From the IMG/VR virus record IMGVR_UViG_2541047814_000001: a stretch of 50,937 bases of DNA. One strand, given 5' to 3'. The notes beneath the pieces were generated by a model that was not told where the DNA came from, searched no databases, and worked only from the letters and a program-made list of their open reading frames with translations. The stretch is from a virus (Duplodnaviria > Heunggongvirae > Uroviricota > Caudoviricetes). The first letter of the stretch is position 1; every line of letters begins with the position of its first letter. This document shows, one piece after another, positions 35,158-50,937 of the stretch. Position numbers and translations under genes: made by a program.

Positions 35158-35164
35158 TATGTGA

Positions 35165-36807: not shown

Positions 36808-36834
36808 ATAAAAAAAAACCGCCTGACGGCAGTT
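36808..36834 (-). terminator. tR'-like terminator just downstream of the Q-like gene (also a hairpin + T8 on the plus strand)
   Basis: Minus strand AAAAAAAA-CTGCCGTCAGGCGG-TTTTTTTTT; imperfect stem, long T tract. Confidence 0.5.
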
Positions 36835-36874
36835 TTTTTTCTTACTTTGCCATCGCGTACAAAATCGGCAAAAT

Positions 36875-36915
36875 ATCAGATTTATACGAAACGTACGCTA
36901 TTTAATTGACTTTTG
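36875..36915 (-). promoter_or_regulatory. Candidate late promoter PR' with -10 TATAAA immediately after the Q stop
   Basis: TATAAA (plus 36881-36886) about 16 nt 3' of the Q stop; -35 is weak; a start here would give a short 6S-like leader ending at the tR'-like terminator. Confidence 0.3.
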
Positions 36916-37953: not shown

Positions 37954-39009
37954 TTATGCTTTCCACTTCAGAACACCCGAATTTCTCGCGTGCATTAAAA
38001 AACGAATCAGCAACAACAGCTGGCTGCCGTGTTTTTCTTCAAAATCTTTTACCCCGGCGTGTAGTTCGCTATGGCATTTACGGCACAGCGGAATAACAAA
38101 CAAATCATCAGCCTTTGTTCCCATCCCTCCCAGTCCATGACCAATGATGTGATGCGGATCATCTGCCTGATTGCCACACGTCATGCATTTCTGCGTTTTT
38201 ACCCAACGCGTGTATACAGGCATCTCTTCCCGTTGTGATTTCTGGCGCTGGAGATACTGAGCCGGTGACTCCGGATCAACGGCAATGCTGACCACCGTCT
38301 TTTCCTGTGGCGGGTTTTGCTGGTGGGCGTGAGGCAGCGGCGCAAGATTTTTTGTGCGCTGCTTCAGTATGCTGGTGGCGGTCTGCTCTCCCGGTACGAT
38401 GTCGCTTTCACGGTACATTGAGCGGATTTTTTCCGCACGCAACCCCAGCGAACGACGTAATACCGCTTCCGGTAGCGCGTCCGCCACCTGATTGCGGACC
38501 GCCCACCAGGATAATTCAGCCAGCGATAATTCCCGCTCCTGCGAGCCATTCATTGCATGGCGTATGACGTCAATCATCCATGCAGACAGGTTTTGGTGAG
38601 CAAGTTGCCCGAGTGATTCGGAGGTCTGGTCGCGCAGCTGGTTGTCGCAGTGCCAGCACAACACCATTGCGCCGGTACCATAACGGTGAATGACGGTTTC
38701 ACTGTGGTGATAATCGCCGTGTGGCCACTGGCAGGATTTAACATGGCGCAGTAACCAGTCAGACAATGCGCCAGCGCCACCAGCAGCACGAATCACTCGT
38801 TCGTCGCTGAAAAATGGCAGTAATGATTTATCCTCCGCCAGCGGCTGGCGAACGGCAGGAACGACCCCGGACGGCAGATTACGCATGCTTTTCGGTTCCG
38901 GCTCCACCAGTACCCGGGTATTGTGGAATACCGGCATGGATTCACGGCCCGGCTTAACGATCACCAGCCCGAGTTCCGGTACCAGAACAGGTCGAAGTAA
39001 TACCCGCAC
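37954..39009 (-). CDS. DUF968-like protein with C-terminal HNH-like Cys/His cluster (351 aa)
   Basis: CMTCGNQADDPHHIIGHGLGGMGTKADDLFVIPLCRKCHSELH; position upstream of rusA/Q as ydfU in Qin (from memory). Confidence 0.55.
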   Translation of the reverse strand: MRVLLRPVLVPELGLVIVKPGRESMPVFHNTRVLVEPEPKSMRNLPSGVVPAVRQPLAEDKSLLPFFSDERVIRAAGGAGALSDWLLRHVKSCQWPHGDYHHSETVIHRYGTGAMVLCWHCDNQLRDQTSESLGQLAHQNLSAWMIDVIRHAMNGSQERELSLAELSWWAVRNQVADALPEAVLRRSLGLRAEKIRSMYRESDIVPGEQTATSILKQRTKNLAPLPHAHQQNPPQEKTVVSIAVDPESPAQYLQRQKSQREEMPVYTRWVKTQKCMTCGNQADDPHHIIGHGLGGMGTKADDLFVIPLCRKCHSELHAGVKDFEEKHGSQLLLLIRFLMHARNSGVLKWKA

Positions 39010-39010
39010 G

Positions 39011-39283
39011 TTACCTCCAGATGCGTTGCTGGAATGTGCGGGACGGACGCGGTGGGCGTTCAGAGTAAGGAAGCCTGACGGAGATTATCCAGTGACGATA
39101 ATCGAGGCTGAGGGCTTTCTTAATCTCGTATCCGCGTCTGCGGTAGTTATGAATTAGCCATTCGGCCTGTTCTTCAGTACATGGTGGGTGTTGGTACCAG
39201 TCGGTTTTAAATGCGTGTGAACGCCGCCCATGCCGGATGGCAAGGTCGGTATCAGAATTGTGAAATTTGGTTTTGTGCGCCAT
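39011..39283 (-). CDS. Hypothetical phage protein (90 aa)
   Basis: ORF abutting the DUF968-like gene; no motif recognised. Confidence 0.4.
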   Translation of the reverse strand: MAHKTKFHNSDTDLAIRHGRRSHAFKTDWYQHPPCTEEQAEWLIHNYRRRGYEIKKALSLDYRHWIISVRLPYSERPPRPSRTFQQRIWR

Positions 39284-39450
39284 CTGTTTTCTCTGCTGGC
39301 GCAGCAGGTGTCAGGTGTTCAGGCTGACGTGCGAATTGTAAACCAGAATGCCAGAAAAAAACAAAACCCGCCGAAGCGGGTTAAGTGCGGGTGCGTTGAG
39401 GATGCCTGACACATCAGAGGTGGCGAGGGATTTCTCCCCCGCCAGGTCTC

Positions 39451-39606
39451 TTACTCCTCAGGTTCGTAAGCTGTGAAGACAGCGACCTCCGTCTGGCCGG
39501 TTCGGAGTCGTACCTCGCAGAGGTCTTTCCTCGTTACCAGTGCCGTCACTATGACGGTTAAACAGATGACGATCAGGGCGATTAACATCGCCTTTTGCTG
39601 CTTCAT
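39451..39606 (-). CDS. hok: Hok/Gef-family type I toxin (51 aa)
   Basis: MKQQKAMLIALIVICLTVIVTALVTRKDLCEVRLRTGQTEVAVFTAYEPEE is a near-canonical Hok sequence; the in-frame upstream extension is probably leader, not coding. Confidence 0.85.
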   Translation of the reverse strand: MKQQKAMLIALIVICLTVIVTALVTRKDLCEVRLRTGQTEVAVFTAYEPEE

Positions 39607-39843
39607 AGCCTGCTTCCCCTTGCCTTTCGGCACGTAAGAGGCTAACCTACATTTGTGAGACATAGATTGGGCCTCAGATTAATGTTAAGCGTCTTGCAGG
39701 ACGCGAAATGTTAACTGGGGCTTTTCTCTATCTGCCTTTCAGTGTTCATGCCTGAGACAGATAGCCTCAAGCACCCGCAGCCATTCTACTTAACTCACGT
39801 CACCTCGCCAATATGAAATCAATCAGAAAGGTGATCCATAAAA

Positions 39844-40530
39844 TCACTCCTTCTCTTCTTTTCCGTAGTGGAGTTGGCCAATTTTGATAAGAGGGCGTCC
39901 CTGAGATTTGCGGTGTAGATTGGTATCGCGCAGAGAATACACACAGCCACAATATTCCTGCTGATAGAATTTTTCGCGCTTGCTGATTTCAATCATACGG
40001 GACGAGCCGCCCTGCTTGCGCCAGTTATAATCCCAGTACACCATACCCGGATAATGCGCAACAGCTCGCCGCCCACACTCGTTAACCTGCTGCATATTTT
40101 TCCAGCGTGAAATGCCCAGTGAACTGCTGATCACACTGAAACCATTTTCAGCAGCGTACAACGCTGTCCGCTCAAAACGCATGTCAAAACACATGGTACA
40201 ACGGATCCCCCTCTCAGGCTCCCATTCCATTCCTTTGGCACGTTCAAACCAGTTGTCGGTGTCGTAATCAGCATCGATAAACGGCACGCCGTGTTGTTCA
40301 GCAAAGCGAATATTTTCATCCTTACGAATTAAATACTCTTTCTGAGGATGAATGTTCGGGTTGTAGAAAAAGATGGTGTAGTCGATTCCCGAGGCCTGAA
40401 GCGCCTCCATCACTTCACCGGAACATGGAGCACAGCAAGAGTGCAGTAGTAGTTTGTTTGCCCCGTTTGGGAGCTCCAATTTAGGCCGTTTGAAATCAGC
40501 AATAGTCATAAATATTTTTATTGGGGTCAT
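39844..40530 (-). CDS. queH: Epoxyqueuosine reductase QueH-like (DUF208, 228 aa)
   Basis: Conserved Cys motifs [28 protein letters not shown] and [11 protein letters not shown], as I recall for the DUF208/QueH family. Confidence 0.7.
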
Positions 40531-40683
40531 GAAAATAGCACAGAGTGTAGCATCAGAGCAGGTCTATCGGGAATATATGTCTAAATCTGGTAATATCTGG
40601 TTTTGACGCAAAGCGGACAACCACGCTGGCTCTACCCTGCGCCATGAAAATGTCAATTCACATCTGAACTAATGCTCTTTAAT

Positions 40684-41124
40684 CTAGTAACGTCTAAAAT
40701 ACCTAACATTTCCTTGATAAAATGCCAGTACACGCTGCATAGCTTCGCTCTTCCGGCACTCGCGACAGATTATATTCAGGCGCCTGTCGTAGCGGCGTAT
40801 TTCGCCGTCTGGTAACGACCAGATAAGGTCCGGATCAACCACTGCAGGTTTCTTCACCTTTGCCCTTGAGAGTTTTTTGCGAGCATTTTGCCAGTCCTTA
40901 CGCGCCTGTTCAGACGGGAATAACCCGTAACCAGAGTTGTATACATCGCCACTGGCAACCAGCTCTCTGGCGAGAACACTCATCAGATATCTTGTCGCAC
41001 CTGTCCTGGCTTCCAGTTGCCGCAACGTCTCGCGACCGCTCAGACGTACAAGTTCAACAACCTGCCCTTTAATTTTTTCCCGCTCTTCTTGTGTAAATAC
41101 TTTTGCCATAAGCGCCTCCGGCAA
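40684..41124 (-). CDS. Hypothetical phage protein (146 aa)
   Basis: ORF in the nin-like region; C-terminal CxxC (CRECRK); no family recognised. Confidence 0.45.
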   Translation of the reverse strand: MPEALMAKVFTQEEREKIKGQVVELVRLSGRETLRQLEARTGATRYLMSVLARELVASGDVYNSGYGLFPSEQARKDWQNARKKLSRAKVKKPAVVDPDLIWSLPDGEIRRYDRRLNIICRECRKSEAMQRVLAFYQGNVRYFRRY

Positions 41125-41895
41125 TCACTTTTCCGATACAACACGGCGGGAAGAATCAGTAATCTGTCGAACAATATCCCGGTGCTTGTTCAGCTCCCGC
41201 AGCGCGGCGCAGACTCGCTCCCACTTCTGAACATCACTTTTCGCCCTGCGCAGCGCCAGGTTTGCCCTGCGAAGGGACGGAAAAATCAGCTCATCTGCTT
41301 GCGTTTCGGTAAACGATGGCAACGGCTGCACAATGTCCGCCACAGTTTCTGTTTTAATTTCTTCCTGTGTTGCGGCTTCCCGGACTGGTAACGCAGCACC
41401 TGCTGGCTGAGGAAAGGCCTTACCATCACTTTCCGTTACCAGCGCGGCTTTCGGCTCTGCTGGTAAATTATCGCCCGGCATGCAGTAACGAAATTTACCG
41501 TTCTGATTAACGCGTGCCAGCCGCCCCGTTGCGGTTACCACCGCCAGCGTGGAAGCAACCTTGCGAGTACTGACACCGAACTTACCCGCCAGTTCCTCAC
41601 ACGTTTTAGCCCCATCCTGACCGATAAACTCAATCATCATGTCTGCGGTAACTTTTTGTTCGACCTCCCCGGTCAGCATATCCTGTGCTTCAGATTTTAC
41701 TGGCCGCTCTTCGGTTACCCGGGATTCACCTTCGCCAGCCAGAAACCAGGTGTGACCAGTTTTATCAACGACGCCTTTTCTTTTGAGTTCCCACAGCTCG
41801 TTGACAGCCTCTTCACGACTGATTCCAAGGCGAGCTGCCACCACATGTGAAGAGGCTTTTTTCAGTGCTTTCAGTGCGTCAGATACGGTTTCCAT
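41125..41895 (-). CDS. Hypothetical protein with two winged-helix-like segments (256 aa)
   Basis: HTH-like VAARLGISREEAVNELWELKRKGVV and AGKFGVSTRKVASTLAVVTATGRLARV; downstream of the DnaC-like gene. Confidence 0.45.
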   Translation of the reverse strand: METVSDALKALKKASSHVVAARLGISREEAVNELWELKRKGVVDKTGHTWFLAGEGESRVTEERPVKSEAQDMLTGEVEQKVTADMMIEFIGQDGAKTCEELAGKFGVSTRKVASTLAVVTATGRLARVNQNGKFRYCMPGDNLPAEPKAALVTESDGKAFPQPAGAALPVREAATQEEIKTETVADIVQPLPSFTETQADELIFPSLRRANLALRRAKSDVQKWERVCAALRELNKHRDIVRQITDSSRRVVSEK

Positions 41896-41916
41896 TAAAA
41901 TTTCCTCCGGACAAAA

Positions 41917-42663
41917 TTACTTCACAACCCTCATATTGCTGACATTTGGACGCCAGCTATCCCAGTTAAACGTCACCCATCGACCACCGTTCATGGTCAT
42001 GCGGTCCATAATCCTCTCACCAAGAAGCGTACTCATTGCGGCATGATTCAGGTTTGTTAACATCCCGACACTGCACAGTGATGCTGTCCGGCGATCAATT
42101 ATCTGGTGCAATACCACCTGCTCGTTTTTCGTCTCCCGCTGAACGCCTATTTCATCCAGGACCAGCAAATCAACCCCGCAAAGCTCCTGTAAAAATTTTT
42201 CCCCGGATTTGCCGTTGTCGTAGCTGTCATGCAACACGCTCATGACGTCAGACACGGTGACGATAATCACGCTGCGCCCCTTCACCATCAGCCGGTTGCC
42301 CATCGCCGCTGCAAGGTGATTTTTCCCGGTGCCGGTTTTACCGCTGAACACAAAATTCGTGCACCCGGTCATCAGTTCGTCAGCTATGGATTTGGCCTGG
42401 CTCAGCGCGTATTTTTGCCCGTCGTTCTGCACCTGATAATTTGCAAACGAGCATTTGCTGTGCAGAGGCTGGATGCCCGAACGATTCAGGATTTTTTCCA
42501 CCCGCAACTGGCGATTCTGGCGGTTAATCTCCTCGCTGCGTTTTCGTCCTTCAGCAAGTTGCCATTCCCGCCACTCCTCCACCGTCCGGTACGGTGGAAC
42601 CGACCCCTGTGGTGCAAGTCTGCGAATACGTTCAAGAACCCCAACTGCCGCAATGTTTTTCAT
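41917..42663 (-). CDS. DnaC-like helicase loader (AAA+ ATPase, YdaV-like, 248 aa)
   Basis: Walker A SGKTGTGKNHLAAA and Walker B LLVLDEIG; same length as Rac YdaV. Confidence 0.8.
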   Translation of the reverse strand: MKNIAAVGVLERIRRLAPQGSVPPYRTVEEWREWQLAEGRKRSEEINRQNRQLRVEKILNRSGIQPLHSKCSFANYQVQNDGQKYALSQAKSIADELMTGCTNFVFSGKTGTGKNHLAAAMGNRLMVKGRSVIIVTVSDVMSVLHDSYDNGKSGEKFLQELCGVDLLVLDEIGVQRETKNEQVVLHQIIDRRTASLCSVGMLTNLNHAAMSTLLGERIMDRMTMNGGRWVTFNWDSWRPNVSNMRVVK

Positions 42664-42669
42664 GACACG

Positions 42670-43617
42670 TCACCCCCTGAATCCCGGCGGTATTTCAGTG
42701 TCCGGTTCAGAAATGTGATTCACGCAACGCTGCGCAGGCGAACGCCCCAGGCGGATAACCAGTTCATCCCATTTTTCCCGGAGTTTTGCCGGACTCATGA
42801 TGTTTTTTACCCAGAACGAATCCCGCTGGAGACGCCCAAACATTTCACAAATTTGTCTGTGAGTTCTGCCATCCAGCATCCGCATTGTGCGAACGTCATT
42901 GGCCCATGCTGTCCAGTTGGGTTCTTTCGGTCTAGTGATCTCGCCATCATAGCTGGCCGCCTGCTCGTAAAGACTCACGATTCGTCCCCAGATCCACTGT
43001 GCGCACACCAAATCTTCCTGACTTCCCCACTGGCGTTTTTTCGCACTGAACACAACCGCGTCAGGGTGTCGGGTTAAAAAATCCTGTTCAGCCGTCTGCG
43101 GGTCCGGTTGCGAAGCGTCCGGACAAGAAGATCTTTTATCTGACGGATCAGGTTTTAATACTGACGGATCGGGGTCAATCATCGCCCCCCTAATCGGCAG
43201 TTTTTTATCAACAGTTGATCCATCAAAATTTGACGGGTCAACCGTTGAGGGGTCATTTTTTGCCGGGCTAATTTTTCTTTTCGGTTTATATGACTCACGC
43301 GCCGCCGCCGCAGCTGCTTCGAGTTTTTCCACATTAAGCCGATAGATATTGCTTACATTACGCCCACCGACCTTACGCTCTTCCTTCGTCAGCCAGCCCT
43401 CTTTCGCCAGTTCTGCAATAGCCGATTTCACTGTGGATTCACTTCTTGCACCGATCTGACGCCGGATAGTTTCAATGGCAGGCCATGACACGCCCTCGTC
43501 ATTGCTGTAGTCTGCAAGACGGGCCATAACCGCCACCCTGGATAAGATCATGCCGGTGAAGGCGCACCCTTCCCAGACAAGACCATGAAGCTTGCTGCTC
43601 ATAAAACCCCCGAACAC
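42670..43617 (-). CDS. Replication initiation/organiser protein, YdaU-like (DUF1376-like, 315 aa)
   Basis: N-terminal wHTH, internal Pro/Asp-rich repeats (DPSTVDPSNFDGSTVD), position upstream of the DnaC-like loader. Confidence 0.55.
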   Translation of the reverse strand: MFGGFMSSKLHGLVWEGCAFTGMILSRVAVMARLADYSNDEGVSWPAIETIRRQIGARSESTVKSAIAELAKEGWLTKEERKVGGRNVSNIYRLNVEKLEAAAAAARESYKPKRKISPAKNDPSTVDPSNFDGSTVDKKLPIRGAMIDPDPSVLKPDPSDKRSSCPDASQPDPQTAEQDFLTRHPDAVVFSAKKRQWGSQEDLVCAQWIWGRIVSLYEQAASYDGEITRPKEPNWTAWANDVRTMRMLDGRTHRQICEMFGRLQRDSFWVKNIMSPAKLREKWDELVIRLGRSPAQRCVNHISEPDTEIPPGFRG

Positions 43618-43624
43618 CGTGCTT

Positions 43625-44050
43625 TTAGTGCATCACCACAGCATTCCCTGCCGGGCCGCCGCGATTCATCTGGTCATACAAAACAACCGCTGACGCAACA
43701 AAATCATCGACATCCTTCACCAGCCGATCCCTCCGTTCGACGATCTCACGGTAATATTCAGAACTGTGGCTGCGCATACGGGCCACCAGCAAAGGCGGCA
43801 TCGCCTTTTCGATCGCCGGTAACAGAGCCTGCATTTTTTCAACAGCATCAGGGGTGTCTTTATCCAGCCAACGGAAAATTTTCTGGGTATTACGGGCCAG
43901 GGCTTCCGGATGGCTGTCGTCGTACAGTTCAGGGAACGTCATCCCCAGTTCGAAATAAGTCCGGGCTATTTCAGCTGCAGGAACTTTCTCACCATCAGGG
44001 TATGCCCAGGCATTCATCGCCATGCGGATGTGCTCATGTTTGATTTTCAT
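43625..44050 (-). CDS. YdaT-like protein (CII-position analogue, 141 aa)
   Basis: Size and position directly after the Cro-like gene as ydaT in Rac. Confidence 0.5.
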   Translation of the reverse strand: MKIKHEHIRMAMNAWAYPDGEKVPAAEIARTYFELGMTFPELYDDSHPEALARNTQKIFRWLDKDTPDAVEKMQALLPAIEKAMPPLLVARMRSHSSEYYREIVERRDRLVKDVDDFVASAVVLYDQMNRGGPAGNAVVMH

Positions 44051-44357
44051 GAATCATTTGCCTCTTGATGCTTCGGGTATGATCGTTTTCGTCATTTGGT
44101 TGCTTCATCGACATATTCTGCGAATAACATGACGAGCGTCGTAAGTATGTCCAATCAACATCAGGACGAAGTTCTTCACACAGGACACCACCTTTTGTTG
44201 CTCGTTCAATCGCAGGACATCTCTCAGCAGGTAACTGACGTACACCTTTGATCCATTGATTTACGCTTGGAGGAGATACACCTAAAAGCCTAGCCATTGC
44301 TGATTGCCCACCGACAACAGCACAAGCTCGTTTGAATGAATAGTTATCTTTTTTCAT
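44034..44357 (-). CDS. Cro-like HTH regulator, YdaS-like (107 aa from MKKDNY...)
   Basis: HTH ACAVVGGQSAMARLLGVSPPSVNQWIKG; GGAG RBS 8 nt upstream of ATG at 44355-44357 (listed ORF starts at an upstream GTG); divergent from the repressor. Confidence 0.7.
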   Translation of the reverse strand: MKKDNYSFKRACAVVGGQSAMARLLGVSPPSVNQWIKGVRQLPAERCPAIERATKGGVLCEELRPDVDWTYLRRSSCYSQNMSMKQPNDENDHTRSIKRQMIHENQT

Positions 44358-44386
44358 CGAATGAACTCCAAAAAACACGCAACAAT

Positions 44387-44427
44387 ATTAGGCTTAGCCT
44401 AATGAAATTGTCAATAGGCTATGCCTA
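44387..44427. promoter_or_regulatory. Operator cluster (OR-like): palindromes ATTAGGC-TTA-GCCTAAT and TAGGC-TAT-GCCTA between divergent repressor and cro-like genes
   Basis: Perfect 17-bp palindrome at 44387-44403 and a second at 44415-44427. Confidence 0.5.
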
Positions 44428-44481
44428 ATACATCGAGAGTAGGGATTGCCTAACGCGATGCGCATAGGAGACTATTAAGCA

Positions 44482-44958
44482 ATGCTTAGTGGTAAAGACT
44501 TAGGCCGAGCGATAGAGCAGGCCATTAACAAAAAAATTGCATCAGGAGCCGTCAAATCAAAGGCGGAAATCGCACGTCATTTCAAAGTCCAACCACCATC
44601 AATCCATGACTGGATTAAGAAAGGTTCGATAAGTAAAGACAAACTTCCAGAACTATGGCGTTTCTTTTCTGATGTGGTTGGTCCAGAGCATTGGGGGCTT
44701 AACGAATACCCCATACCAACCCCATCCACTTCAGATACAAAAAGTGAACTTTTAGACATAAACAGCCTTTATCAAGCCGCCTCTGATGAAAAAAAAGCAA
44801 TTGTGGCTTTCATCTTATCTGGAAATGCTACGGAGCCTAGTTGGGTTGATTATGACGTTCGCGCCTACATTGCCGCAATGGAAATGAAGGTAGCTAACTA
44901 TCTGAAAAATCAAGAATCAAAACGGAAAAGCCAGAACATCACCAAGACAGGAACTTAA
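44482..44958 (+). CDS. Prophage repressor, RacR-like HTH protein (158 aa; no S24 peptidase domain seen)
   Basis: HTH KAEIARHFKVQPPSIHDWIKKGSI; divergent from cro-like gene; flanked by operator palindromes; same length as Rac RacR. Confidence 0.6.
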   Translation: MLSGKDLGRAIEQAINKKIASGAVKSKAEIARHFKVQPPSIHDWIKKGSISKDKLPELWRFFSDVVGPEHWGLNEYPIPTPSTSDTKSELLDINSLYQAASDEKKAIVAFILSGNATEPSWVDYDVRAYIAAMEMKVANYLKNQESKRKSQNITKTGT

Positions 44959-45053
44959 ACTTATATGGTCCGACGGGAAATTCCTAGTTCCCGTTAGTTA
45001 ACTCCTACTACCTCTCCCACAAACCATCACCTATTAGGTTGCGCCCAAATTAT

Positions 45054-45095
45054 TAGGCATAGCCTATTGACAAGTAATTAGGCATTTCCTATAGT
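45054..45095 (+). promoter_or_regulatory. PL-like early-left promoter (TTGACA - 17 nt - TATAGT) overlapped by TAGGC...GCCTA operator sites
   Basis: -35 at 45067-45072, -10 at 45090-45095; palindrome TAGGC-ATA-GCCTA at 45054-45066 and imperfect TAGGCATTTCCTA in the spacer. Confidence 0.5.
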
Positions 45096-45276
45096 TTTCC
45101 CATACCAACCCATCCCGTCCCACACAATACAGGGCAATACCTCGAGTTACCAGGCAGTGGTCAGGGGTTAAGTAGCCAGCCCGAGGCGTAAGAACATGAC
45201 GGCAGGGTTCAACTTTAATAACTATGCAGCAGGTTTTTGTTCCGCTACCCCGGCGTTAAGGGGAAATGAGGTCAGC

Positions 45277-45429
45277 ATGGATACTATCGAGCTTGGCAAC
45301 AACGAATCTCTGGTATGCGGCGTGTTTCCCAACCAGGACGGCACGTTTACCGCGATGACATATACCAGAAGCAAAACGTTTAAAACTGAAGCTGGCGCGC
45401 GTCGCTGGTTAACCAGAAACACTGACTGA
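45277..45429 (+). CDS. Small protein, YdfA-like by position (50 aa from MDTIEL...)
   Basis: GAGG RBS 5 nt upstream of internal ATG; first gene after the PL-like promoter. Confidence 0.45.
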   Translation: MDTIELGNNESLVCGVFPNQDGTFTAMTYTRSKTFKTEAGARRWLTRNTD

Positions 45430-45440
45430 TGAGGTTGACG

Positions 45441-45761
45441 ATGGAATTTAAAGATTTACCAGTACCATTCCAGGAAATGGCATCGAATGTGGTTCGCTCT
45501 CAACTGGCGACTCTTGACCTGAGTACCGTAGAAAAAGAAACCATCGACAATATATCCGGTAACGTACGCCGAGCCTTTATCGGGCTGTACGAAGAGAAGC
45601 AGCTCTCTGATAACCAGGATTTACATGAAAAATACTTCCTGGATCTAATGGACATCATTGATAAGGGGTTTGGCTTGTTAATGAAAAAGAAAGGGATTCG
45701 AATAGAACCCCTTGAAAATTACTTTGCAACAAAAAGCATTAATTCTTTTGATTCAAAATAA
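45441..45761 (+). CDS. Hypothetical protein (106 aa), YdfB/YdfC-position gene
   Basis: GAGG RBS upstream of ATG (MEFKDL...); hydrophilic; upstream of the dicF region. Confidence 0.4.
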   Translation: MEFKDLPVPFQEMASNVVRSQLATLDLSTVEKETIDNISGNVRRAFIGLYEEKQLSDNQDLHEKYFLDLMDIIDKGFGLLMKKKGIRIEPLENYFATKSINSFDSK

Positions 45762-46014
45762 GAGAATTAATTACAGACTTAACATGCTCTTTCTCATGAT
45801 TGAAGCTCTCATGATTGAAAGTGCCGGGTTGAAGCGAGTCGATATAATCAACAAGACTCTGTCGTACGACTTCATTTTTATCCATAACAGATGCAAGAAA
45901 TGAAATTGCTAAAAGAGTTATATCACTACGCGCCGCAGCATGTTGCAATGCTTTATCAAAATTATTAATCTGGCGTATCAGGGAGTTAATGATTTCATCA
46001 TTTTCAGTCGACAT
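45739..46014 (-). CDS. Hypothetical protein (91 aa) antisense to the early-left transcript
   Basis: Strong RBS AGGAGG-gtgaa-ATG; complex composition; 3' end overlaps the convergent plus-strand gene by 23 bp. Confidence 0.35.
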   Translation of the reverse strand: MSTENDEIINSLIRQINNFDKALQHAAARSDITLLAISFLASVMDKNEVVRQSLVDYIDSLQPGTFNHESFNHEKEHVKSVINSLILNQKN

Positions 46015-46348
46015 TTCACCCTCCTGAGGGTTGGTGATTAAGGAGTTCTCCACGGGTGAGGTGGAGTGCGTGCGCCGGACACGGGTGAGCATCCGGCACT
46101 GACAGTTTACTGAAAGGATATTTCCCTGAAAAGTCAGACCATAACGCGAAAGCGCCCGGCGAGGTAGCTGGTTCATAGATAGCCTGTCGTTAAATTTTCG
46201 TCGACCGTGCGTTTCCGGTTGTGGCAATCCGCGAAATGGCGCGGCGGTAAGTATGGCGGGGTTATTCCTTCCCCGTTGAGGACACCGAGTTGTCAGGTTG
46301 ACCATACGCTTAAGTGACAACCCCGCTGCAACGCCCTCTGTTATCAAT

Positions 46349-46406
46349 TTTCTGGTGACGTTTGGCGGTATCAGTTTTACTCCGTGACTGCTCTGCCGCC
46401 CTTTTT
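46349..46406 (+). ncRNA. dicF: DicF sRNA (53 nt plus T-tract terminator)
   Basis: TTTCTGGTGACGTTTGGCGGTATCAGTTTTACTCCGTGACTGCTCTGCCGCCC followed by TTTTT matches the DicF sequence as I recall it; lies upstream of dicB as in Qin. Confidence 0.65.
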
Positions 46407-46575
46407 AAAGTGAATTTTGTGATGTGGTGAATGCGGCTGAGCGCACGCGGAACAGTTAAAACCAAAAACAGTGTTATGGGTGGATTCTCTGTATCCGGCG
46501 TTAATTGTTAACTGGTTAACGTCACCTGGAGGCACCAGGCACCGCATCACAAAATTCATTGTTGAGGACGCGATA

Positions 46576-46764
46576 ATGGAAACGTTATTACCAAACATTA
46601 ATACGTCTGAAGGTTGTTTTGAAATTGGTGTCACTATCAGTAACCCTGTATTTACTGAAGATGCCATTAACAAGAGAAAACACGAACGGGAGCTATTAAA
46701 TAAAATATGCATTCTTTCAATGCTGGCCCGTTTACGTCCGATACAAAAAGGATGCTGGCAATGA
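46576..46764 (+). CDS. dicB: Cell-division inhibitor DicB (62 aa)
   Basis: METLLPNINTSEGCFEIGVTISNPVFTEDAINKRKHERELLNKICILSMLARLRPIQKGCWQ; 62 aa; GAGGA RBS; downstream of dicF. Confidence 0.75.
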   Translation: METLLPNINTSEGCFEIGVTISNPVFTEDAINKRKHERELLNKICILSMLARLRPIQKGCWQ

Positions 46765-46952
46765 ATACAGCATTTGCACTTGTTCTGACAGTTTTTCTTG
46801 TTTCCGGAGAGCCAGTTGATATTGCAGTCAGTGTTCACAGGACAATGCAGGAGTGTGTGACTGCAGCAACCGAACAGAAAATTCCCGGTAACTGTTACCC
46901 GGTCGATAAAGTTATTCACCAGGATAATAACGAAATCCCGGCAGGTCTTTAA
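46761..46952 (+). CDS. ydfD: YdfD-like small protein with N-terminal hydrophobic segment (63 aa)
   Basis: ATGA overlap with dicB stop; MNTAFALVLTVFLVSGEP signal/TM-like; size equals Qin YdfD. Confidence 0.6.
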   Translation: MNTAFALVLTVFLVSGEPVDIAVSVHRTMQECVTAATEQKIPGNCYPVDKVIHQDNNEIPAGL

Positions 46953-47044
46953 AACAGTTCCGTAATAAATATCCGGTTTCATTCTTATATGCCAGCAATG
47001 GCAGGGATTTGTTCACCCTTAAATCTGTAATGAGGTAAAACAAA

Positions 47045-49516
47045 ATGAGTAAAGTCTTTATTTGCGCCGCCATTCCGGACGAACAGGCAATAAAGGAAGA
47101 AGGTGCCGTCGCTGTAGCCACTGCCATTGAAGCCGGTGATGAACGTCGCGCCCGCGCAAAATTTCACTGGCAATTCCTGGAACATTATCCGGCTGCTCAG
47201 GACTGCGCTTATAAATTTCTTGTCTGCGAGGATAAACCCGGTATACCCCGCCCTGCCCTCGATTCCTGGGATGCTGAATATATGCAGGAAAACCGCTGGG
47301 ATGAGGAGTCTGCTTCCTTTGTCCCGGTTGAGACTGAATCAGATCCGATGAACGTCACTTTTGACAAGCTGGCCCCTGAAGTACAGAACGCTGTCATGGT
47401 TAAGTTCGACACATGTGAAAACATCACCGTTGATATGGTTATTAGCGCACAGGAATTGTTGCAGGAAGACATGGCAACATTCGACGGACATATCGTTGAA
47501 GCGTTGATGAAAATGCCAGAAGTTAACGCCATGTATCCGGAGCTTAAGCTGCATGCCATCGGGTGGGTTAAGCATAAATGTAAGCCTGGTGCCAAATGGC
47601 CCGAAATTCAGGCAGAGATGCGCATCTGGAAAAAACGTCGCGAAGGTGAACGCAAGGAAACCGGAAAATACACGTCTGTTGTTGATCTCGCCCGCGCCAG
47701 AACCAATCAACAGCACAGTGAAAATTCAACAGGAAAAATCAGCCCGGTCATTGCTGCCATTCATCGCGAATACAAGCAGACATGGAAAACACTGGATGAC
47801 GAACTGGCCTACGCTCTCTGGCCTGGTGATGTGGATGCCGGAAACATTGACGGCAGCATCCATCGCTGGGCAAAAAATGAAGTTATCGACAACGACCGCG
47901 AAGACTGGAAGCGTATCTCGGCATCAATGCGCAAACAGCCTGATGCCCTTCGCTACGACCGCCAGACTATTTTTGGCCTTGTCCGTGAACGTCCGATCGA
48001 CATTCACAAAGACCCTGTGGCACTGAACAAATACATTACTGAATACCTGACTACAAAGGGCGTGTTTGAAGATGAAGGAAGAAATCAGAGCGCAACTGAT
48101 ACTCTCTCGTCGCCAGTACCAGAAACTGATGCAGTGGAAACGGCAATTCCGGGCAACGAAAAAACCGAATGCAAAGTGGAAGTCGAACCATCTGTAGAGC
48201 GTGAGGGGCCGTTCTACTTCCTCTTCACCGACAAGGATGGCGAAAAATACGGTCGCGCAAACAAACTTTCTGGTCTGGAAAAAGCACTAGCCTTGGGAGC
48301 TACGGAAATCACAAAAGAGGAATACTTCGCACGTAAAAACGGCACGTACTCAGGTTCACAACAAAATACTGGTGCATCTGACACGACCGCACAACCAGAG
48401 CCGGTAAAAGTTACCGCTGACGAAGTAAACAAAATTATGCAGGCAGCCAATATCAGCCAGCCTGACGCCGATAAGTTGCTTGCTGCCTCTCGCGGAGAAT
48501 TTGTTGCAGGGATTAGCGACCCGAATGATCCGAAATGGGTAAAGGGGATTGAAACCCGCGATTCTGTAAACCAGAACCAGCAAGAATCGGAACAGAACGA
48601 CCAGAAAGCGGAACAAAACAGCCCAAATACGCAACAAAACGAGCCAGAAACGAAACAACCTGAGCCAGTAGCGCAACAGGAACCGGAAAAAGTCTGCACC
48701 GCCTGCGGTCAAAGCGGTGGCGGCAACTGCCCTGATTGTGGCGCGGTGATGGGTGACGCAACATACCAGGAAACATTCGATGAAGAGAATCAGGTTGAAG
48801 TTCAGGAAAATGATCCGAAGGAAATGGAAGGCGCTGAACATCCACACAAGGAGAATGCTGGTAGCGCTCAGGATCACGCCAGCGATAGTGAAACTGGCGA
48901 GACGGCAGATCCCTTAATTGCGATGAACGGTCATCACGTTATCACATCCACCAGCAGGACGTGTGACCATCTAATGATCGACCTTGAAACCATGGGAAAA
49001 AATCCTGATGCCCCGATTATCTCAATAGGTGCAATATTTTTCGATCCGCAAACCGGAGATATGGGACCGGAATTTAGTAAGACTATCGATCTGGAAACTG
49101 CTGGCGGAGTCATTGATCGTGACGTCATTAAAAGGTGGCTGAAGCAATCACGTGAAGCGCAGTCTGCCATTATGACCGATGAAATCCCGTTAGATGATGC
49201 ACTGTTACAATTGCGGGAATTTATCGACGAAAACTCCGGTGAATTTTTTGTTCAGGTCTGGGGAAATGGAGCCAACTTCGACAACACGATTTTGCGCCGT
49301 TCATACGAACGGCAGGGGATCCCCTGCCCGTGGCGTTACTACAACGATCGCGATGTACGCACAATCGTTGAGCTGGGGAAAGCCATAGACTTCGATGCCA
49401 GAACGGCTATTCCATTCGAAGGTGAGCGCCATAATGCACTTGATGACGCCCGTTACCAGGCAAAATACATTTCAGTTATCTGGCAAAAACTGATCCCGAA
49501 TCAGGCTGATTTTTAA
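47045..49516 (+). CDS. Large exonuclease-like protein with C-terminal DnaQ-like DEDDh 3'-5' exonuclease domain (823 aa)
   Basis: Exo motifs MIDLETMG, VWGNGANFDNTIL, HNALDDARY in the C-terminal ~190 aa; Cys cluster CTACGQSGGGNCPDCG; Gln/Glu/Asn-rich linker. Confidence 0.75.
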   Translation: MSKVFICAAIPDEQAIKEEGAVAVATAIEAGDERRARAKFHWQFLEHYPAAQDCAYKFLVCEDKPGIPRPALDSWDAEYMQENRWDEESASFVPVETESDPMNVTFDKLAPEVQNAVMVKFDTCENITVDMVISAQELLQEDMATFDGHIVEALMKMPEVNAMYPELKLHAIGWVKHKCKPGAKWPEIQAEMRIWKKRREGERKETGKYTSVVDLARARTNQQHSENSTGKISPVIAAIHREYKQTWKTLDDELAYALWPGDVDAGNIDGSIHRWAKNEVIDNDREDWKRISASMRKQPDALRYDRQTIFGLVRERPIDIHKDPVALNKYITEYLTTKGVFEDEGRNQSATDTLSSPVPETDAVETAIPGNEKTECKVEVEPSVEREGPFYFLFTDKDGEKYGRANKLSGLEKALALGATEITKEEYFARKNGTYSGSQQNTGASDTTAQPEPVKVTADEVNKIMQAANISQPDADKLLAASRGEFVAGISDPNDPKWVKGIETRDSVNQNQQESEQNDQKAEQNSPNTQQNEPETKQPEPVAQQEPEKVCTACGQSGGGNCPDCGAVMGDATYQETFDEENQVEVQENDPKEMEGAEHPHKENAGSAQDHASDSETGETADPLIAMNGHHVITSTSRTCDHLMIDLETMGKNPDAPIISIGAIFFDPQTGDMGPEFSKTIDLETAGGVIDRDVIKRWLKQSREAQSAIMTDEIPLDDALLQLREFIDENSGEFFVQVWGNGANFDNTILRRSYERQGIPCPWRYYNDRDVRTIVELGKAIDFDARTAIPFEGERHNALDDARYQAKYISVIWQKLIPNQADF

Positions 49517-49580
49517 TGTTCAACCCCGGTCGTTGCCCACCAGCTATAGTGGCGGCGACCATGATTAGCGAACGACGCTC

Positions 49581-49829
49581 ATGGCAAGACTTATTCTGCT
49601 CACTGAGTGGGCAAAAGAGGAATTCAGTGAACCGGTCCCTACTCCGAGTACGTTAAGTAAATACGCTAAAGCCGGAATGATATTTCCTCTCCCCAAAAAA
49701 GTTGGAAGACGCTGGCGAGTGGATCCGCAAGCTCGCTTTGTCGGAATGGTAAACAAGCCGGAGGTGATCGCCACAGATCACCCTGCTTTGAAGAGGATAC
49801 TGGAAGATGGCGCGCCCGCGAAAATATAA
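49581..49829 (+). CDS. xis: Excisionase-like protein (82 aa)
   Basis: Small basic protein immediately upstream of and overlapping int; IFPLPKKVGRRWRVD resembles Xis winged helix. Confidence 0.55.
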   Translation: MARLILLTEWAKEEFSEPVPTPSTLSKYAKAGMIFPLPKKVGRRWRVDPQARFVGMVNKPEVIATDHPALKRILEDGAPAKI

Positions 49830-50937
49830 AACCGATGTTCCGGGATTATCTCCGTATTTTGACAAAAGAAATAACAAAGTTTACTGGCGTTACAGGCATC
49901 CCATAACAGGCAAAAATCACGGTCTCGGCAGTATTGACCAGAAACTGGCAGAAACTATTGCAGCAGAAGCGAACAGCCGTCTTGCCCGGCAGCAAATGGA
50001 ACAAATGCTCAGTCTGCAGGAGAAAATTATTAGTGATACCGGCGGTTCATCAACCGTTACCATTTTTCTGAATAATTACAGAAAAATTCAACAGGAAAGA
50101 TATGAAAACGGCGAGATCAAACTCAACACGCTGAAACAGAAAGCGGCCCCTCTCAGGGTATTTGATGAACGTTTTGGCACCAGACCGTTAGATGCCATAA
50201 CCGTAAAAGATGTGGTATCAGTACTGGAAGAGTACAAGGCCAGAGGACATAACAGAATGGGACAAATTTTCAGGAAAGTACTGATCGATGTTTTCCGGGA
50301 AGCTCAGCAAACGGGCGATGTCCCGCCAGGCTTTAACCCTGCAGAATCGGCAAAAAAACCGCAGGTGCGGATATCAAGACAGCGACTGACTTTTGATGAG
50401 TGGATGATGATTTATAACGCAGCGGAAAAGGATGGTTACTTTTTACAGCGCGGTATGCTGCTGGCACTGATGACAGGCCAGCGCCTTTCAGATATTTGCA
50501 AAATGCAATTTTCGGATATCCGGGATGGTTATCTTCATGTCGAACAGCAAAAAACAGGAACCCGGATTGCCATCCCTCTGGCTCTGCGTTGCGATAAATT
50601 AAATCTCACCCTGGATGATGTGGTGTCATCCTGCCGCGATTGCGTTCTTAGTCCGTGGCTATTGCACCACCATCACGCGAAAGGGACAGCTAAGCGCGGC
50701 GGGATGGTTAAGCCAGCAACATTAACCGTTGCATTTAAAAAAGCCCGGGATTCTGTGGATTACAACTGGCGTGCTAATGGCACCCCTCCCTCTTTCCATG
50801 AGCAGAGATCTTTATCAGAGCGATTGTTCAGAGAGCAGGGGGTTGATACCAAAATTTTGCTAGGCCATTCGAATCAAAAAATGACCGATATTTACAACGA
50901 CGCACGCGGTAAGGAATGGAAAAAACTGGTCATTTGA
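49807..50937 (+). CDS. int: Tyrosine integrase, lambda Int family (376 aa)
   Basis: N-terminal arm-binding domain (MARPRKYKTDVPGLSPYFDKRNNKVYWRYRHPITGKNHGLG) and catalytic motifs (GQRLSDICKMQFSDI, HEQRSLSERL, LLGHSNQKMTDIYNDARG) parallel lambda Int. Confidence 0.9.
   Translation: MARPRKYKTDVPGLSPYFDKRNNKVYWRYRHPITGKNHGLGSIDQKLAETIAAEANSRLARQQMEQMLSLQEKIISDTGGSSTVTIFLNNYRKIQQERYENGEIKLNTLKQKAAPLRVFDERFGTRPLDAITVKDVVSVLEEYKARGHNRMGQIFRKVLIDVFREAQQTGDVPPGFNPAESAKKPQVRISRQRLTFDEWMMIYNAAEKDGYFLQRGMLLALMTGQRLSDICKMQFSDIRDGYLHVEQQKTGTRIAIPLALRCDKLNLTLDDVVSSCRDCVLSPWLLHHHHAKGTAKRGGMVKPATLTVAFKKARDSVDYNWRANGTPPSFHEQRSLSERLFREQGVDTKILLGHSNQKMTDIYNDARGKEWKKLVI

What the first reader, a model, noticed from the sequence alone, without database searches (positions are those of the whole stretch)
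47045..49516. Recombination slot filled by one large DEDDh exonuclease rather than an exo/bet or recE/recT pair
Between dicB/ydfD and xis/int, where lambda carries exo-bet-gam and Rac carries recET, there is a single 823-aa protein. Its only recognisable catalytic domain is a C-terminal DnaQ-like 3'-5' exonuclease; the N-terminal ~600 aa and a Cys4 cluster have no function I can assign. No single-strand annealing protein is visible in the window.
Basis: partly seen in the sequence, partly recalled or inferred. Interest (0 to 1): 0.4.

Follow-up and report, generated by a model that had tools for sequence, protein, structure and literature searches.

The report
RecE-like protein with swapped exonuclease
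The 823-residue protein is the intact form of the E. coli K-12 pseudogene ydfE: a RecE-type recombination protein whose usual 5'-3' nuclease and partner gene recT have been replaced by a 3'-5' DEDDh exonuclease; it is very common in E. coli prophages but its function has not been tested.

Summary
An 823-aa ORF (47045-49516, +) lies between dicF-dicB-ydfD and xis-int. It has a C-terminal DEDDh exonuclease (PF16473, E 9e-63, all five catalytic residues) and a Cys4 knuckle. No annealase or RecBCD inhibitor was found in the window.

Residues 238-345 and 474-624, which include the Cys4 motif, are clearly homologous to the non-catalytic part of Rac RecE, and residues 1-230 probably are. Residues 1-256 are 97% identical to the K-12 Qin pseudogene ydfE.

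Across relatives, two N-terminal types combine freely with either a RecE PD-(D/E)XK nuclease or this DEDDh domain. All 80 PD-(D/E)XK loci have recT immediately downstream. None of 85 DEDDh sequences has any annealase.

The prophage has 14 Chi sites against 2.3 expected, and fits the published "no Rec module, high Chi" class of lambdoid phages.

The gene occurs in 75% of complete E. coli genomes, is under purifying selection, and is already catalogued as "exonuclease".

Most likely it is a 3'-end DNA-processing enzyme made during lytic growth in a phage that relies on host RecBCD/RecA. That function is inferred, not shown. Interest is modest.

The parts
47045..49516 (+). Intact ydfE-type gene: 823-aa RecE-scaffold/DEDDh exonuclease fusion
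   Evidence: ORF. PHROG 2082 'exonuclease' matches full length. PGAP names WP_000048527.1 'exonuclease'. aa 1-256 are 97% identical to K-12 ydfE.
47045..47662 (+). aa 1-206: two confident N-terminal domains, alpha/beta 1-95 and helical 102-206 (YdfE-type N-terminus); probably a divergent RecE PF06630-type domain
47756..48073 (+). aa 238-343: helical middle domain shared with RecE
   Evidence: hhalign against RecE 270-380 gives probability 100%, E 1e-46. BLASTP 27% identity to RecE 295-368. NCBIfam PRK09709 partial hit. AF2 confident.
48197..48355 (+). aa 385-437: small beta-beta-alpha-beta-alpha domain, no known relative
   Evidence: AF2 pLDDT about 90 or higher. No hhalign match to RecE 380-470.
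48464..48916 (+). aa 474-624: RecE-conserved segment (helical pair, Q/E/N/P-rich linkers, Cys4 knuckle); homology to RecE ends here
   Evidence: 74% identical to Rac-SA53 RecE 471-614. DNA 85% identical to recE over gene positions 1438-1834. Linkers have pLDDT below 50.
48695..48739 (+). Cys4 knuckle C551/C554/C562/C565 (probable small zinc ribbon)
   Evidence: Sequence. Conserved in RecE. Weak Pfam DZR hit, E 0.11. AF2 pLDDT about 72.
48968..49483 (+). aa 642-813: DEDDh 3'-5' exonuclease domain (Rv2179c-like / DexA-like)
   Evidence: PF16473 E 9.4e-63. Catalytic D646, E648, D746, H796, D801. PDB hit to 8kel, identified as T4 DexA from the NAR paper. 36% identical to EcD.
46350..46401 (+). DicF sRNA, upstream in the same transcriptional orientation
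   Evidence: Rfam RF00039, 76.7 bits.
46576..46952 (+). dicB and ydfD (DUF1482), immediately upstream
   Evidence: Pfam DicB E 4.9e-37 and DUF1482 E 3.7e-25. PGAP annotation.
49581..50937 (+). xis and int, immediately downstream; only a 64-bp gap after the exonuclease stop, so no room for recT
   Evidence: ORFs. PGAP excisionase and integrase. In Rac the order is recE-recT-ralR-ydaC-xis-int.
30230..49544 (.). 14 Chi sites (GCTGGTGG), all in this span, 10 on the - strand (the lambda-map top strand); two lie in or just after the exonuclease gene (48948, 49537)
   Evidence: 14 found against 2.27 expected; none of 100 shuffles reached 14. Orientations listed.
37588..37953 (-). RusA Holliday-junction resolvase; with the adjacent DUF968/HNH protein, the only other nuclease-type DNA-transaction genes recognised in the prophage
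   Evidence: PGAP annotation. Adjacent DUF968/HNH protein.

Best explanation
The gene is the intact form of ydfE. It belongs to the RecE (exonuclease VIII) family. The long non-catalytic RecE scaffold is retained: N-terminal domains, helical middle domain and a Cys4-containing linker. The C-terminal PD-(D/E)XK 5'-3' nuclease, together with the adjacent recT annealase gene, has been replaced by a DexA/Rv2179c-type DEDDh 3'-5' exonuclease domain.

Shown here:
- the domain homologies;
- intact catalytic residues;
- combinatorial module exchange among relatives;
- strict coupling of recT to the PD-(D/E)XK version and its absence from the DEDDh version;
- purifying selection on every segment;
- no annealase and no Gam/Abc2-type RecBCD inhibitor in the prophage;
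- Chi enrichment in the lambda-active orientation.

Inferred:
- The gene is the last before xis/int in the dicF-dicB-ydfD operon, which is repressor-controlled in Qin. The protein would therefore be made after induction.
- The flexible RecE scaffold would deliver the nuclease to the same DNA ends or partner that RecE addresses.
- There the nuclease would trim 3' ends of DNA.
- Homologous recombination and concatemer formation would be left to host RecBCD-Chi/RecA plus phage RusA.
For: Domains:
- PF16473 E 9e-63 and all five DEDDh residues.
- RecE homology of aa 246-626 and of aa 1-230 and 238-345 by hhalign.
- aa 1-256 are 97% identical to K-12 ydfE.

Module map of 50%-identity representatives:
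- YdfE-N + DEDDh: the window protein, P0003, P0123.
- YdfE-N + PD-(D/E)XK: P0130, P0173, P0206, P0247.
- RecE-N + DEDDh: P0139, P0239, P0243, P0257, P0258.
- RecE-N + PD-(D/E)XK: P0190, P0255, P0260.

Co-occurrence:
- 0 of 85 DEDDh-bearing sequences (909 kb) contain RecT, Bet, Erf, lambda Exo, Gam or Abc1/2.
- 80 of 80 PD-(D/E)XK loci contain recT, at a median of 20 bp downstream.

Recombination context:
- A stand-alone homologue (56% identical) sits inside the Erf-SSB-exo-Abc2 Rec module of phage mEp235.
- Zheng et al. 2025 (PMC12315714) report DnaQ-like nucleases in lambdoid Rec modules and near int.

Chi:
- Window 14 against 2.3 expected, 10 in the active orientation, none in the ~24-kb structural arm.
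- Tritos 11 and Evi 15, against 3 in mEp235, which has a Rec module.

Maintenance:
- dN/dS 0.10-0.29 in the scaffold segments and 0.24-0.48 in the DEDDh domain.
- 69 of 80 loci intact.
- Present in deposited phage genomes Tritos, Evi and mEp460_ev081.

Precedent: T4 DexA, the characterised relative, is a 3'-5' DNA exonuclease used in DNA scavenging and intron homing (PMC12153337).
Against: - No biochemical or genetic data exist for this fusion. Substrate (DNA or RNA) and polarity are inferred from family membership.
- 3'-5' exonucleases usually antagonise RecA-type recombination, as Zheng et al. note, so a pro-recombination role is not obvious.
- Zheng et al. explicitly do not count DnaQ-type genes next to int as Rec-module genes.
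- Distant stand-alone homologues lie in replication or other early contexts without an annealase.
- The 80 DEDDh loci are close relatives (at least 95% identical in that domain), so the 0/85 count is not made of independent events.
- The annealase screen used profiles plus a limited tblastn seed set. Sak, Sak4 and other families were covered only through Pfam, PHROG and PGAP.
- This prophage carries IS insertions. Chi enrichment could partly reflect residence in the chromosome, although the Chi-free structural arm argues against that.
Confidence: 0.5

Rival explanations
1. It is a prophage-encoded anti-phage nuclease of the DexA/EcD ('HREX') type. It would be expressed in the lysogen and would degrade incoming hypermodified (5hmC) T-even DNA from its 3' ends, protecting the host.
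For: - The domain is homologous to EcD (36% identity, E 3e-33). I recovered EcD from viral contigs using its published primer, and it has the reported Ala78.
- EcD protects E. coli from T4 and cuts only 5hmC DNA (PMC12153337).
- That paper notes K-12 lacks DexA homologues, which fits ydfE being truncated before the DEDDh domain.
- Prophages often carry defence genes.
Against: - Both residues the paper shows are needed for 5hmC recognition differ here: DexA W152/EcD Trp corresponds to Y766, and DexA D169/EcD Glu corresponds to K778/A779.
- The tetramer-forming Asp that EcD has lost (DexA D90, EcD A78) is retained here as D718.
- The protein is a fusion to a RecE scaffold, not a stand-alone enzyme of about 190 aa.
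- The gene sits at the end of the dicB early operon. A consensus scan found no + strand promoter-like site in 46300-49900.
- PADLOC gives only a generic DEDDh match, E 1.5e-5.
Confidence: 0.12
2. It is an exoribonuclease, as the NCBI name '3'-5' exoribonuclease' and the Pfam family's founding member Rv2179c suggest. It would act on phage or host RNAs during induction, for example trimming or degrading transcripts or small RNAs.
For: - The best Pfam model is the 'Rv2179c-like 3'-5' exoribonuclease' domain, with a weak RNase_T hit.
- Many database sources name it an exoribonuclease.
- DicF sRNA is encoded in the same operon.
Against: - The characterised phage and E. coli relatives, DexA and EcD, are DNA exonucleases (PMC12153337).
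- The domain replaces a DNA nuclease on a DNA-recombination scaffold.
- A close stand-alone homologue lies between SSB and Abc2 in a Rec module.
Confidence: 0.08
3. The large N-terminal region hides an annealase or other recombinase activity, so the single protein is a complete exonuclease-plus-annealase recombination system.
For: - The region is large (about 470 aa of folded domains), conserved (dN/dS 0.10-0.29) and of unknown function.
- Full-length RecE improves linear-linear recombination relative to its nuclease domain alone (review PMC11611040, citing Fu et al. 2012).
Against: - No Pfam, PHROG or NCBIfam annealase match.
- The same scaffold, when joined to the PD-(D/E)XK nuclease, is accompanied by recT in 80 of 80 loci. 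The scaffold therefore does not substitute for an annealase.
Confidence: 0.04
4. It is a decaying or selfish remnant with no current function, left after recombination deleted the recE 3' end and recT.
For: - Truncated copies exist: K-12 ydfE and about 11 of 80 loci.
- One representative, P0227, has substitutions at two catalytic positions.
- This prophage carries IS insertions.
Against: - dN/dS 0.10-0.29 in the scaffold segments and 0.24-0.48 in the DEDDh domain.
- 69 of 80 frames intact.
- Catalytic residues invariant in 6 of 7 diverse representatives.
- Present in 75% of complete E. coli genomes, often in several copies.
- Present in deposited phage genomes.
Confidence: 0.05

Closest known systems
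RecE (exodeoxyribonuclease VIII) of the Rac prophage
   Same: - Same position in the early-left operon near xis/int.
- Homologous non-catalytic scaffold: aa 238-345 and aa 474-624 including the Cys4 motif, and probably aa 1-230.
- Similar length and a beads-on-a-string layout.
   Different: - C-terminal nuclease is DEDDh (3'-5'), not PD-(D/E)XK (5'-3').
- No adjacent recT, ralR or ydaC.
- Scores 283 bits against the 1269-bit cutoff of the RecE equivalog model.
- N-terminus does not match Pfam PF06630 directly.
YdfE (b1577), pseudogene of the E. coli K-12 Qin prophage
   Same: Same gene: aa 1-256 are 97% identical, and the upstream context ydfA...dicF-dicB-ydfD is the same.
   Different: K-12 ydfE is cut by IS2E after codon 256, so it lacks the middle domain, the Cys4 linker and the exonuclease. 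The window copy is complete.
T4 DexA and E. coli EcD (HREX exonucleases; PDB 8KEL/8KEN; PMC12153337)
   Same: Same DEDDh fold family with identical catalytic residues. The window domain is 25-27% identical to DexA and 36% identical to EcD.
   Different: - Those are stand-alone proteins of about 190-227 aa.
- The 5hmC-recognition residues (Trp and Asp/Glu) are Tyr and Lys/Ala here.
- The tetramer-interface Asp that EcD has lost is retained here.
Stand-alone DnaQ-like nuclease of lambdoid Rec modules (e.g. phage mEp235; class described by Zheng et al. 2025)
   Same: 56% identical exonuclease domain. Lambdoid early-left operon close to xis/int.
   Different: In mEp235 it is a 182-aa protein flanked by Erf, SSB and Abc2. 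Here it is fused to a RecE scaffold, and the phage has no annealase, SSB or RecBCD inhibitor.
'No Rec module - high Chi' (LLS-type) lambdoid phages (Zheng et al. 2025, PMC12315714; also Bobay et al. 2013, as cited there)
   Same: No annealase and no RecBCD inhibitor. Chi is over-represented, biased to the lambda-active orientation and located in the right arm.
   Different: That class is defined at the level of the whole phage. Its authors set DnaQ-type genes near int aside without analysing them. RecBCD dependence of this prophage is untested.
'RecE-2' proteins (Zheng et al. 2025)
   Same: RecE-related scaffold proteins in lambdoid early-left operons. Relatives with no recognisable C-terminal domain exist in this family (P0125, P0129, P0131 and others).
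   Different: RecE-2 proteins are described as lacking a nuclease domain. This protein has an intact DEDDh nuclease.

Membership tests
RecE / exodeoxyribonuclease VIII (NCBIfam NF007259 equivalog) | Whole-protein score at or above the curated cutoff (1269 bits) | tested here: not met
   282.7 bits, covering only aa 246-626 against profile positions 271-603 of 877.
RecE / exodeoxyribonuclease VIII | C-terminal PD-(D/E)XK (lambda-Exo-like) 5'-3' nuclease domain | tested here: not met
   No PF12684 hit, whereas Rac-SA53 RecE has one. No BLASTP or tblastn similarity to the RecE C-terminus.
RecE / exodeoxyribonuclease VIII | Non-catalytic central region with the Cys4 motif | tested here: met
   74% identity over aa 474-624. 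hhalign probability 100% for aa 238-345.
RecE / exodeoxyribonuclease VIII | N-terminal Exonuc_VIII domain (PF06630) | tested here: inconclusive
   No direct Pfam hit. Profile-profile probability 86%, E 4.7e-6, against a 2.6% control.
RecE / exodeoxyribonuclease VIII | Partner annealase gene recT immediately downstream | tested here: not met
   xis starts 64 bp after the stop codon. No RecT by tblastn. The control set has recT in 80 of 80 loci.
RecE / exodeoxyribonuclease VIII | 5'-3' dsDNA exonuclease activity | not testable with these tools
   Needs an enzyme assay.
DEDDh (DnaQ-like) exonuclease, Rv2179c-like family PF16473 | Profile match above the gathering threshold | tested here: met
   211.5 bits against a cutoff of 27, covering aa 642-813 and profile positions 2-177 of 177.
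DEDDh (DnaQ-like) exonuclease, Rv2179c-like family PF16473 | Exo I/II/III catalytic residues D, E, D, H, D | tested here: met
   D646, E648, D746, H796 and D801, aligned with DexA D7/E9/D119/H186/D191.
DEDDh (DnaQ-like) exonuclease, Rv2179c-like family PF16473 | 3'-5' exonuclease activity and its substrate (DNA or RNA) | not testable with these tools
   Needs an enzyme assay.
HREX (DexA/EcD 5hmC-recognising exonuclease; PMC12153337) | Homology to DexA/EcD | tested here: met
   36% identical to EcD (E 3e-33) and 25-27% identical to DexA.
HREX (DexA/EcD 5hmC-recognising exonuclease; PMC12153337) | 5hmC-recognition residues (DexA W152 and D169) conserved | tested here: not met
   W152 aligns with Y766. 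D169 aligns with K778/A779. EcD has Trp and Glu at these positions.
HREX (DexA/EcD 5hmC-recognising exonuclease; PMC12153337) | Loss of the tetramer-forming Asp (DexA D90, Ala78 in EcD) | tested here: not met
   The aligned residue is D718. The alignment in this loop is of moderate reliability.
HREX (DexA/EcD 5hmC-recognising exonuclease; PMC12153337) | Protection of the host against T-even phages | not testable with these tools
   Needs plaque assays on lysogens.
Single-strand annealing proteins (RecT/Red-beta, Erf, Rad52-like Sak, Sak4) | Sequence-profile match anywhere in the protein or prophage | tested here: not met
   for the protein. for the prophage.
Single-strand annealing proteins (RecT/Red-beta, Erf, Rad52-like Sak, Sak4) | Annealase fold in the N-terminal 473 aa | tested here: not met
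LLS-type 'no Rec module, high Chi' lambdoid phage (PMC12315714) | No annealase, no lambda Exo or RecE-type 5'-3' nuclease, no RecBCD inhibitor | tested here: met
LLS-type 'no Rec module, high Chi' lambdoid phage (PMC12315714) | Abundant Chi, mostly in the lambda-active orientation, towards the right arm | tested here: met
   14 sites against 2.27 expected, 10 of 14 on the lambda-top strand, all within window 30.2-49.5 kb.
LLS-type 'no Rec module, high Chi' lambdoid phage (PMC12315714) | Growth aided by host RecBCD | not testable with these tools
   Needs plating on recB/recC/recD hosts.

The most novel reading that the evidence does not exclude
The RecE-family N-terminal scaffold, whose function has been unknown since RecE was described, may be a platform that does not depend on the type of nuclease and that brings whichever nuclease it carries to DNA ends or to a host partner. 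On that reading, the DEDDh fusions define an annealase-independent branch of phage recombination or replication restart, based on 3'-end processing, that works with host RecBCD-Chi/RecA rather than replacing it.
Probability: 0.15. Interest if true: 0.6.

Novelty: new variant of a known kind. Interest (0 to 1): 0.35.

Why it matters
- If the module-swap reading is right, nature has joined one scaffold to two nucleases of opposite polarity, with the annealase present only with the 5'-3' nuclease.
- This gives a direct handle on two open questions: what the dispensable-looking N-terminal two-thirds of RecE does, and how Rec-module-less, Chi-rich lambdoid phages manage recombination-dependent growth.
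- It also corrects annotation. Labels such as 'exodeoxyribonuclease VIII' or 'exoribonuclease' on this very common gene (75% of complete E. coli genomes) are unsupported. K-12 ydfE can be described as its truncated form.
- In practice, the family could matter for recombineering tools and for understanding prophage-prophage recombination in pathogenic E. coli.
- All functional statements remain inferences.

Tried and rejected
- Literature searches for 'Rv2179c + prophage + exonuclease' and 'ydfE + Qin + exonuclease' returned nothing. I found no paper on this fusion.
- The supplement of Zheng et al. is not held, so I could not see how they classified mEp460 or Tritos.
- The search for homologous proteins returned only near-identical E. 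coli copies. The precomputed Pfam accessions PF27430 and PF27432 are not in my local Pfam copy, so I could not resolve their names.
- The search for related loci with the DEDDh alignment also returned only copies at 95% identity or more. The co-occurrence count therefore lacks phylogenetic independence.
A plain 17-mer search worked instead. The reverse primer differs from the recovered gene by one extra A, so identity with HAK9828821.1 rests on the start sequence, the length class and Ala78, not on an exact match.
- PADLOC gave only a generic CRISPR-associated DEDDh hit.
- Rejected, hidden annealase: no fold or profile match, and recT accompanies the same scaffold elsewhere.
- Rejected, pseudogene: dN/dS and ORF intactness argue against it.
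- Rejected, canonical RecE: the defining nuclease and recT are absent.
Full report
**Observation.**
- It follows DicF (Rfam, 46350-46401), dicB and ydfD/DUF1482. It is followed after 64 bp by xis and int.
- Pfam places an Rv2179c-like DEDDh 3'-5' exonuclease domain at aa 642-813 (E 9.4e-63).
- All five catalytic residues are present: D646, E648, D746, H796 and D801. They align with DexA D7/E9/D119/H186/D191.
- The Cys4 cluster is C551/C554/C562/C565, inside a Q/E/N/P-rich stretch.

**Origin of the window.** Window 44000-50937 is 100% identical to a lambdoid prophage integrated beside ompW in E. coli MS 145-7 and other strains. PGAP calls the gene 'exonuclease'. Other sources call it '3'-5' exoribonuclease' or 'exonuclease VIII'.

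**No annealase.**
- PGAP names no RecT, Bet or Erf in the prophage.
- PHROG and Pfam scans of ten early-region proteins of unclear function find an O-like initiator, a DUF968/HNH protein, DUF977 (PHROG 'Ren-like'), DUF1627 and small unknowns. They find no annealase and no Gam/Abc2.
- tblastn with Rac RecT and the RecE C-terminus, lambda Exo/Bet/Gam and P22 Erf/Abc1/Abc2 finds nothing in the window.
- RusA and the DUF968/HNH protein are the only other nuclease-type DNA-transaction genes recognised.

**The N-terminal 620 residues are RecE-like.**
- NCBIfam's RecE model (PRK09709) matches aa 246-626 to its positions 271-603. The score is 283 bits against a cutoff of 1269.
- BLASTP against Rac-SA53 RecE gives 74% identity over aa 474-624 against RecE 471-614, including the Cys4 motif. 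It gives 27% over aa 262-336. Similarity stops at the start of RecE's C-terminal, nuclease-containing part.
- RecE itself has PF06630 at its N-terminus and a PD-(D/E)XK domain (PF12684) at its C-terminus. The window protein matches neither directly.
- Profile-profile comparison gives aa 238-345 against RecE 270-380 at probability 100%, E 1e-46. It gives aa 1-230 against the RecE N-terminus at probability 86%, E 4.7e-6. A mismatched control scored 2.6%.
- aa 1-256 are 97% identical to the K-12 Qin pseudogene ydfE (b1577), which IS2E truncates. The window gene is therefore the intact ydfE.

**Structure.**
- AlphaFold2 with a 58-sequence alignment gives confident domains at aa 1-95, 102-206, 238-343 and 385-437 (pLDDT mostly above 90). 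They are joined by low-confidence linkers.
- The full-length model adds a helical pair at 458-482, a small Cys4 knuckle (pLDDT about 72) and the DEDDh domain at 638-820. The overall picture is beads on a string.
- BFVD gives nothing at E 0.001 or better. AFDB was not available.
- A 2023 review states that the RecE N-terminal domain is of unknown function and that full-length RecE improves linear-linear recombination (PMC11611040).

**Module exchange.** The N-terminal 470 aa have only 189 clusters at 50% identity among 1.84 billion representatives. Mapping reference modules onto the long relatives shows all four combinations:
- YdfE-type N-terminus + DEDDh
- YdfE-type N-terminus + RecE PD-(D/E)XK
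- RecE-type N-terminus + DEDDh
- RecE-type N-terminus + PD-(D/E)XK

Many relatives have C-terminal regions with no Pfam domain. These probably correspond to the 'RecE-2' proteins of Zheng et al. In seven diverse DEDDh domains the catalytic residues are invariant, except in P0227, which has changes at two of them.

**Coupling to recT.**
- 85 sequences carrying the DEDDh version (the window, four annotated loci and 80 IMG/VR loci; 909 kb in total) contain no RecT, Bet, Erf, lambda Exo, Gam, Abc1 or Abc2.
- Of these, 65 have the YdfE-type N-terminus and 18 the RecE type.
- In a control set of 80 IMG/VR loci carrying the RecE PD-(D/E)XK domain, all 80 have recT, at a median of 20 bp downstream.
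- The exchanged unit is therefore [PD-(D/E)XK domain + recT] against [DEDDh domain alone].
- Because recT accompanies the same scaffold elsewhere, the scaffold is unlikely to be an annealase.
- Caveat: the DEDDh loci are close relatives, so these are not independent events.

**Phage-level context.** Zheng, Casjens, Davidson, Amundsen and Smith (2025, PMC12315714) report the following:
- 22% of enterobacterial lambdoid phages have no Rec module, and most of these carry many Chi sites.
- One such phage, LLS, grows better with RecBCD.
- DnaQ-like nucleases occur inside some Rec modules, and sporadically near int.

This prophage fits that class.
- It has 14 Chi sites against 2.27 expected, and none of 100 shuffles reached 14.
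- All 14 lie in window 30.2-49.5 kb, the right arm in lambda orientation. Ten are in the lambda-active orientation. None lies in the ~24-kb structural arm.
- Deposited phage genomes with the same gene and no annealase have 11 (Tritos) and 15 (Evi) Chi sites, mostly in the active orientation.
- mEp235, which has Erf-SSB-exo-Abc2, has 3.
- In mEp235 the exonuclease is a stand-alone 182-aa homologue, 56% identical, inside the Rec module.
- More distant stand-alone homologues lie in replication or other early regions.

The family is therefore a general phage DNA-metabolism accessory, and recombination is only one of its contexts.

**Defence alternative.** Kang et al. (2025, PMC12153337) show that T4 DexA (PDB 8KEL/8KEN, my only PDB sequence hits) and a stand-alone E. 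coli homologue, EcD, recognise 5hmC DNA. They also show that EcD protects cells from T4.
- Using the published EcD primer I recovered a 189-aa protein from viral contigs. It starts MIDTET and has Ala78, as reported.
- It is 36% identical to the window domain.
- Both residues shown to be needed for 5hmC recognition differ here: Trp corresponds to Y766, and Asp/Glu corresponds to K778/A779.
- The Asp that EcD has lost is retained here as D718.
- PADLOC has only a generic DEDDh match.
- The gene's position at the end of the dicB operon argues against constitutive expression. In Qin that operon is repressed by DicA, which I take from established knowledge and did not test here. A consensus scan found no + strand promoter-like site nearby.

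**Prevalence and selection.**
- The DEDDh-coding 591 nt occur in 4,084 of 5,426 complete E. coli genomes, with up to 7 copies per genome.
- 69 of 80 IMG/VR copies have intact frames of at least 780 codons.
- dN/dS is 0.10-0.29 for the three scaffold segments and 0.24-0.48 for the DEDDh domain. dS is very uneven between segments, which indicates mosaic ancestry.

**Verdict.**
- The best-supported reading is a RecE-family scaffold carrying a swapped 3'-5' DEDDh DNA exonuclease.
- It would be made during lytic development in a Chi-rich phage that leaves recombination to host RecBCD/RecA and to RusA.
- The homologies, the module exchange, the recT coupling, the Chi pattern and the selection are shown. 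The substrate, the polarity, the timing of expression and the biological role are inferred.
- The gene is common and already catalogued, so interest is modest. Its main value is as a natural experiment on the unexplained RecE N-terminal region.

Noticed in passing
window 27529-29780 (+): Two ORFs (499 aa with a Mu-transposase C-terminal domain, and 251 aa IstB_IS21) form an IS21-family element. It accounts for about 2.4 kb that is absent from the MS 145-7 copy of the prophage, which is otherwise collinear with the window. It lies between the terminase/cos region and the lysis genes, so this copy may be defective.
   Followed up: partly
window 1-25800 versus 30230-49544: All 14 Chi sites lie in the early/lysis half of the prophage. 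The ~24-kb head-tail arm has none, although E. coli's average density would predict about five. Three Chi sites cluster at 30230-30686, in the lysis region (lysis-protein and lysozyme genes).
   Followed up: partly
L006:3079-3999 (E. coli K-12 MG1655, ydfE b1577): The K-12 pseudogene ydfE is the first 256 codons of this exonuclease gene (97% identical), truncated by IS2E. K-12 therefore lacks the DEDDh domain. This agrees with the remark in PMC12153337 that K-12 has no DexA homologue.
   Followed up: yes
window 47045-49516 compared with L026, L069 and others: Synonymous divergence between copies varies about ten-fold along the gene (dS 0.03-0.08 in the DEDDh part, about 0.39 in the middle domain). 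This indicates recombination breakpoints inside the gene.
   Followed up: partly
P0227 (representative homologue, RecE-type N-terminus + DEDDh): This variant has Lys in place of the catalytic Glu (DLKT) and Ala in place of the Exo II Asp (SFAN). It is probably catalytically dead but otherwise conserved.
   Followed up: no
window 34239-35240 (-): Two copies of the sRNA family STnc100 and three tRNA genes (Arg, Arg and Ile in PGAP) lie between the DNA methyltransferase gene (35290-36339) and the SASA-family esterase gene (32163-34016), downstream of Q.
   Followed up: no
window 39451-39776 (-) and 39844-40509 (-): A hokD/sok type I toxin-antitoxin pair, with an epoxyqueuosine reductase (queH) gene next to it, lies within the prophage nin-like region.
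   Followed up: no
window 2062-2260 (-) and 26374-26473 (+): Rfam IS009 matches inside the tail-fibre assembly gene. An ALIL pseudoknot (IS3-type frameshift element) with a partial transposase lies near the terminase genes.
   Followed up: no
window 1-558 (+) and 1296-1964 (+): [quoted passage not shown] They lie beyond the tail-fibre genes, and I did not determine whether they are prophage cargo or flanking DNA.
   Followed up: no
hits P0001-P0120: The precomputed domain table attaches two recent Pfam accessions, PF27430 and PF27432, to this family in addition to PF16473. They are not in my local Pfam copy, so curated domain definitions for the scaffold may already exist.
   Followed up: no
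L171:3775-5859 (phage mEp235): A compact Rec module, Erf - SSB - DEDDh exonuclease - Abc2-like, lies directly upstream of xis/int. It is a clear example of the DnaQ-type nuclease as a Rec-module member.
   Followed up: partly
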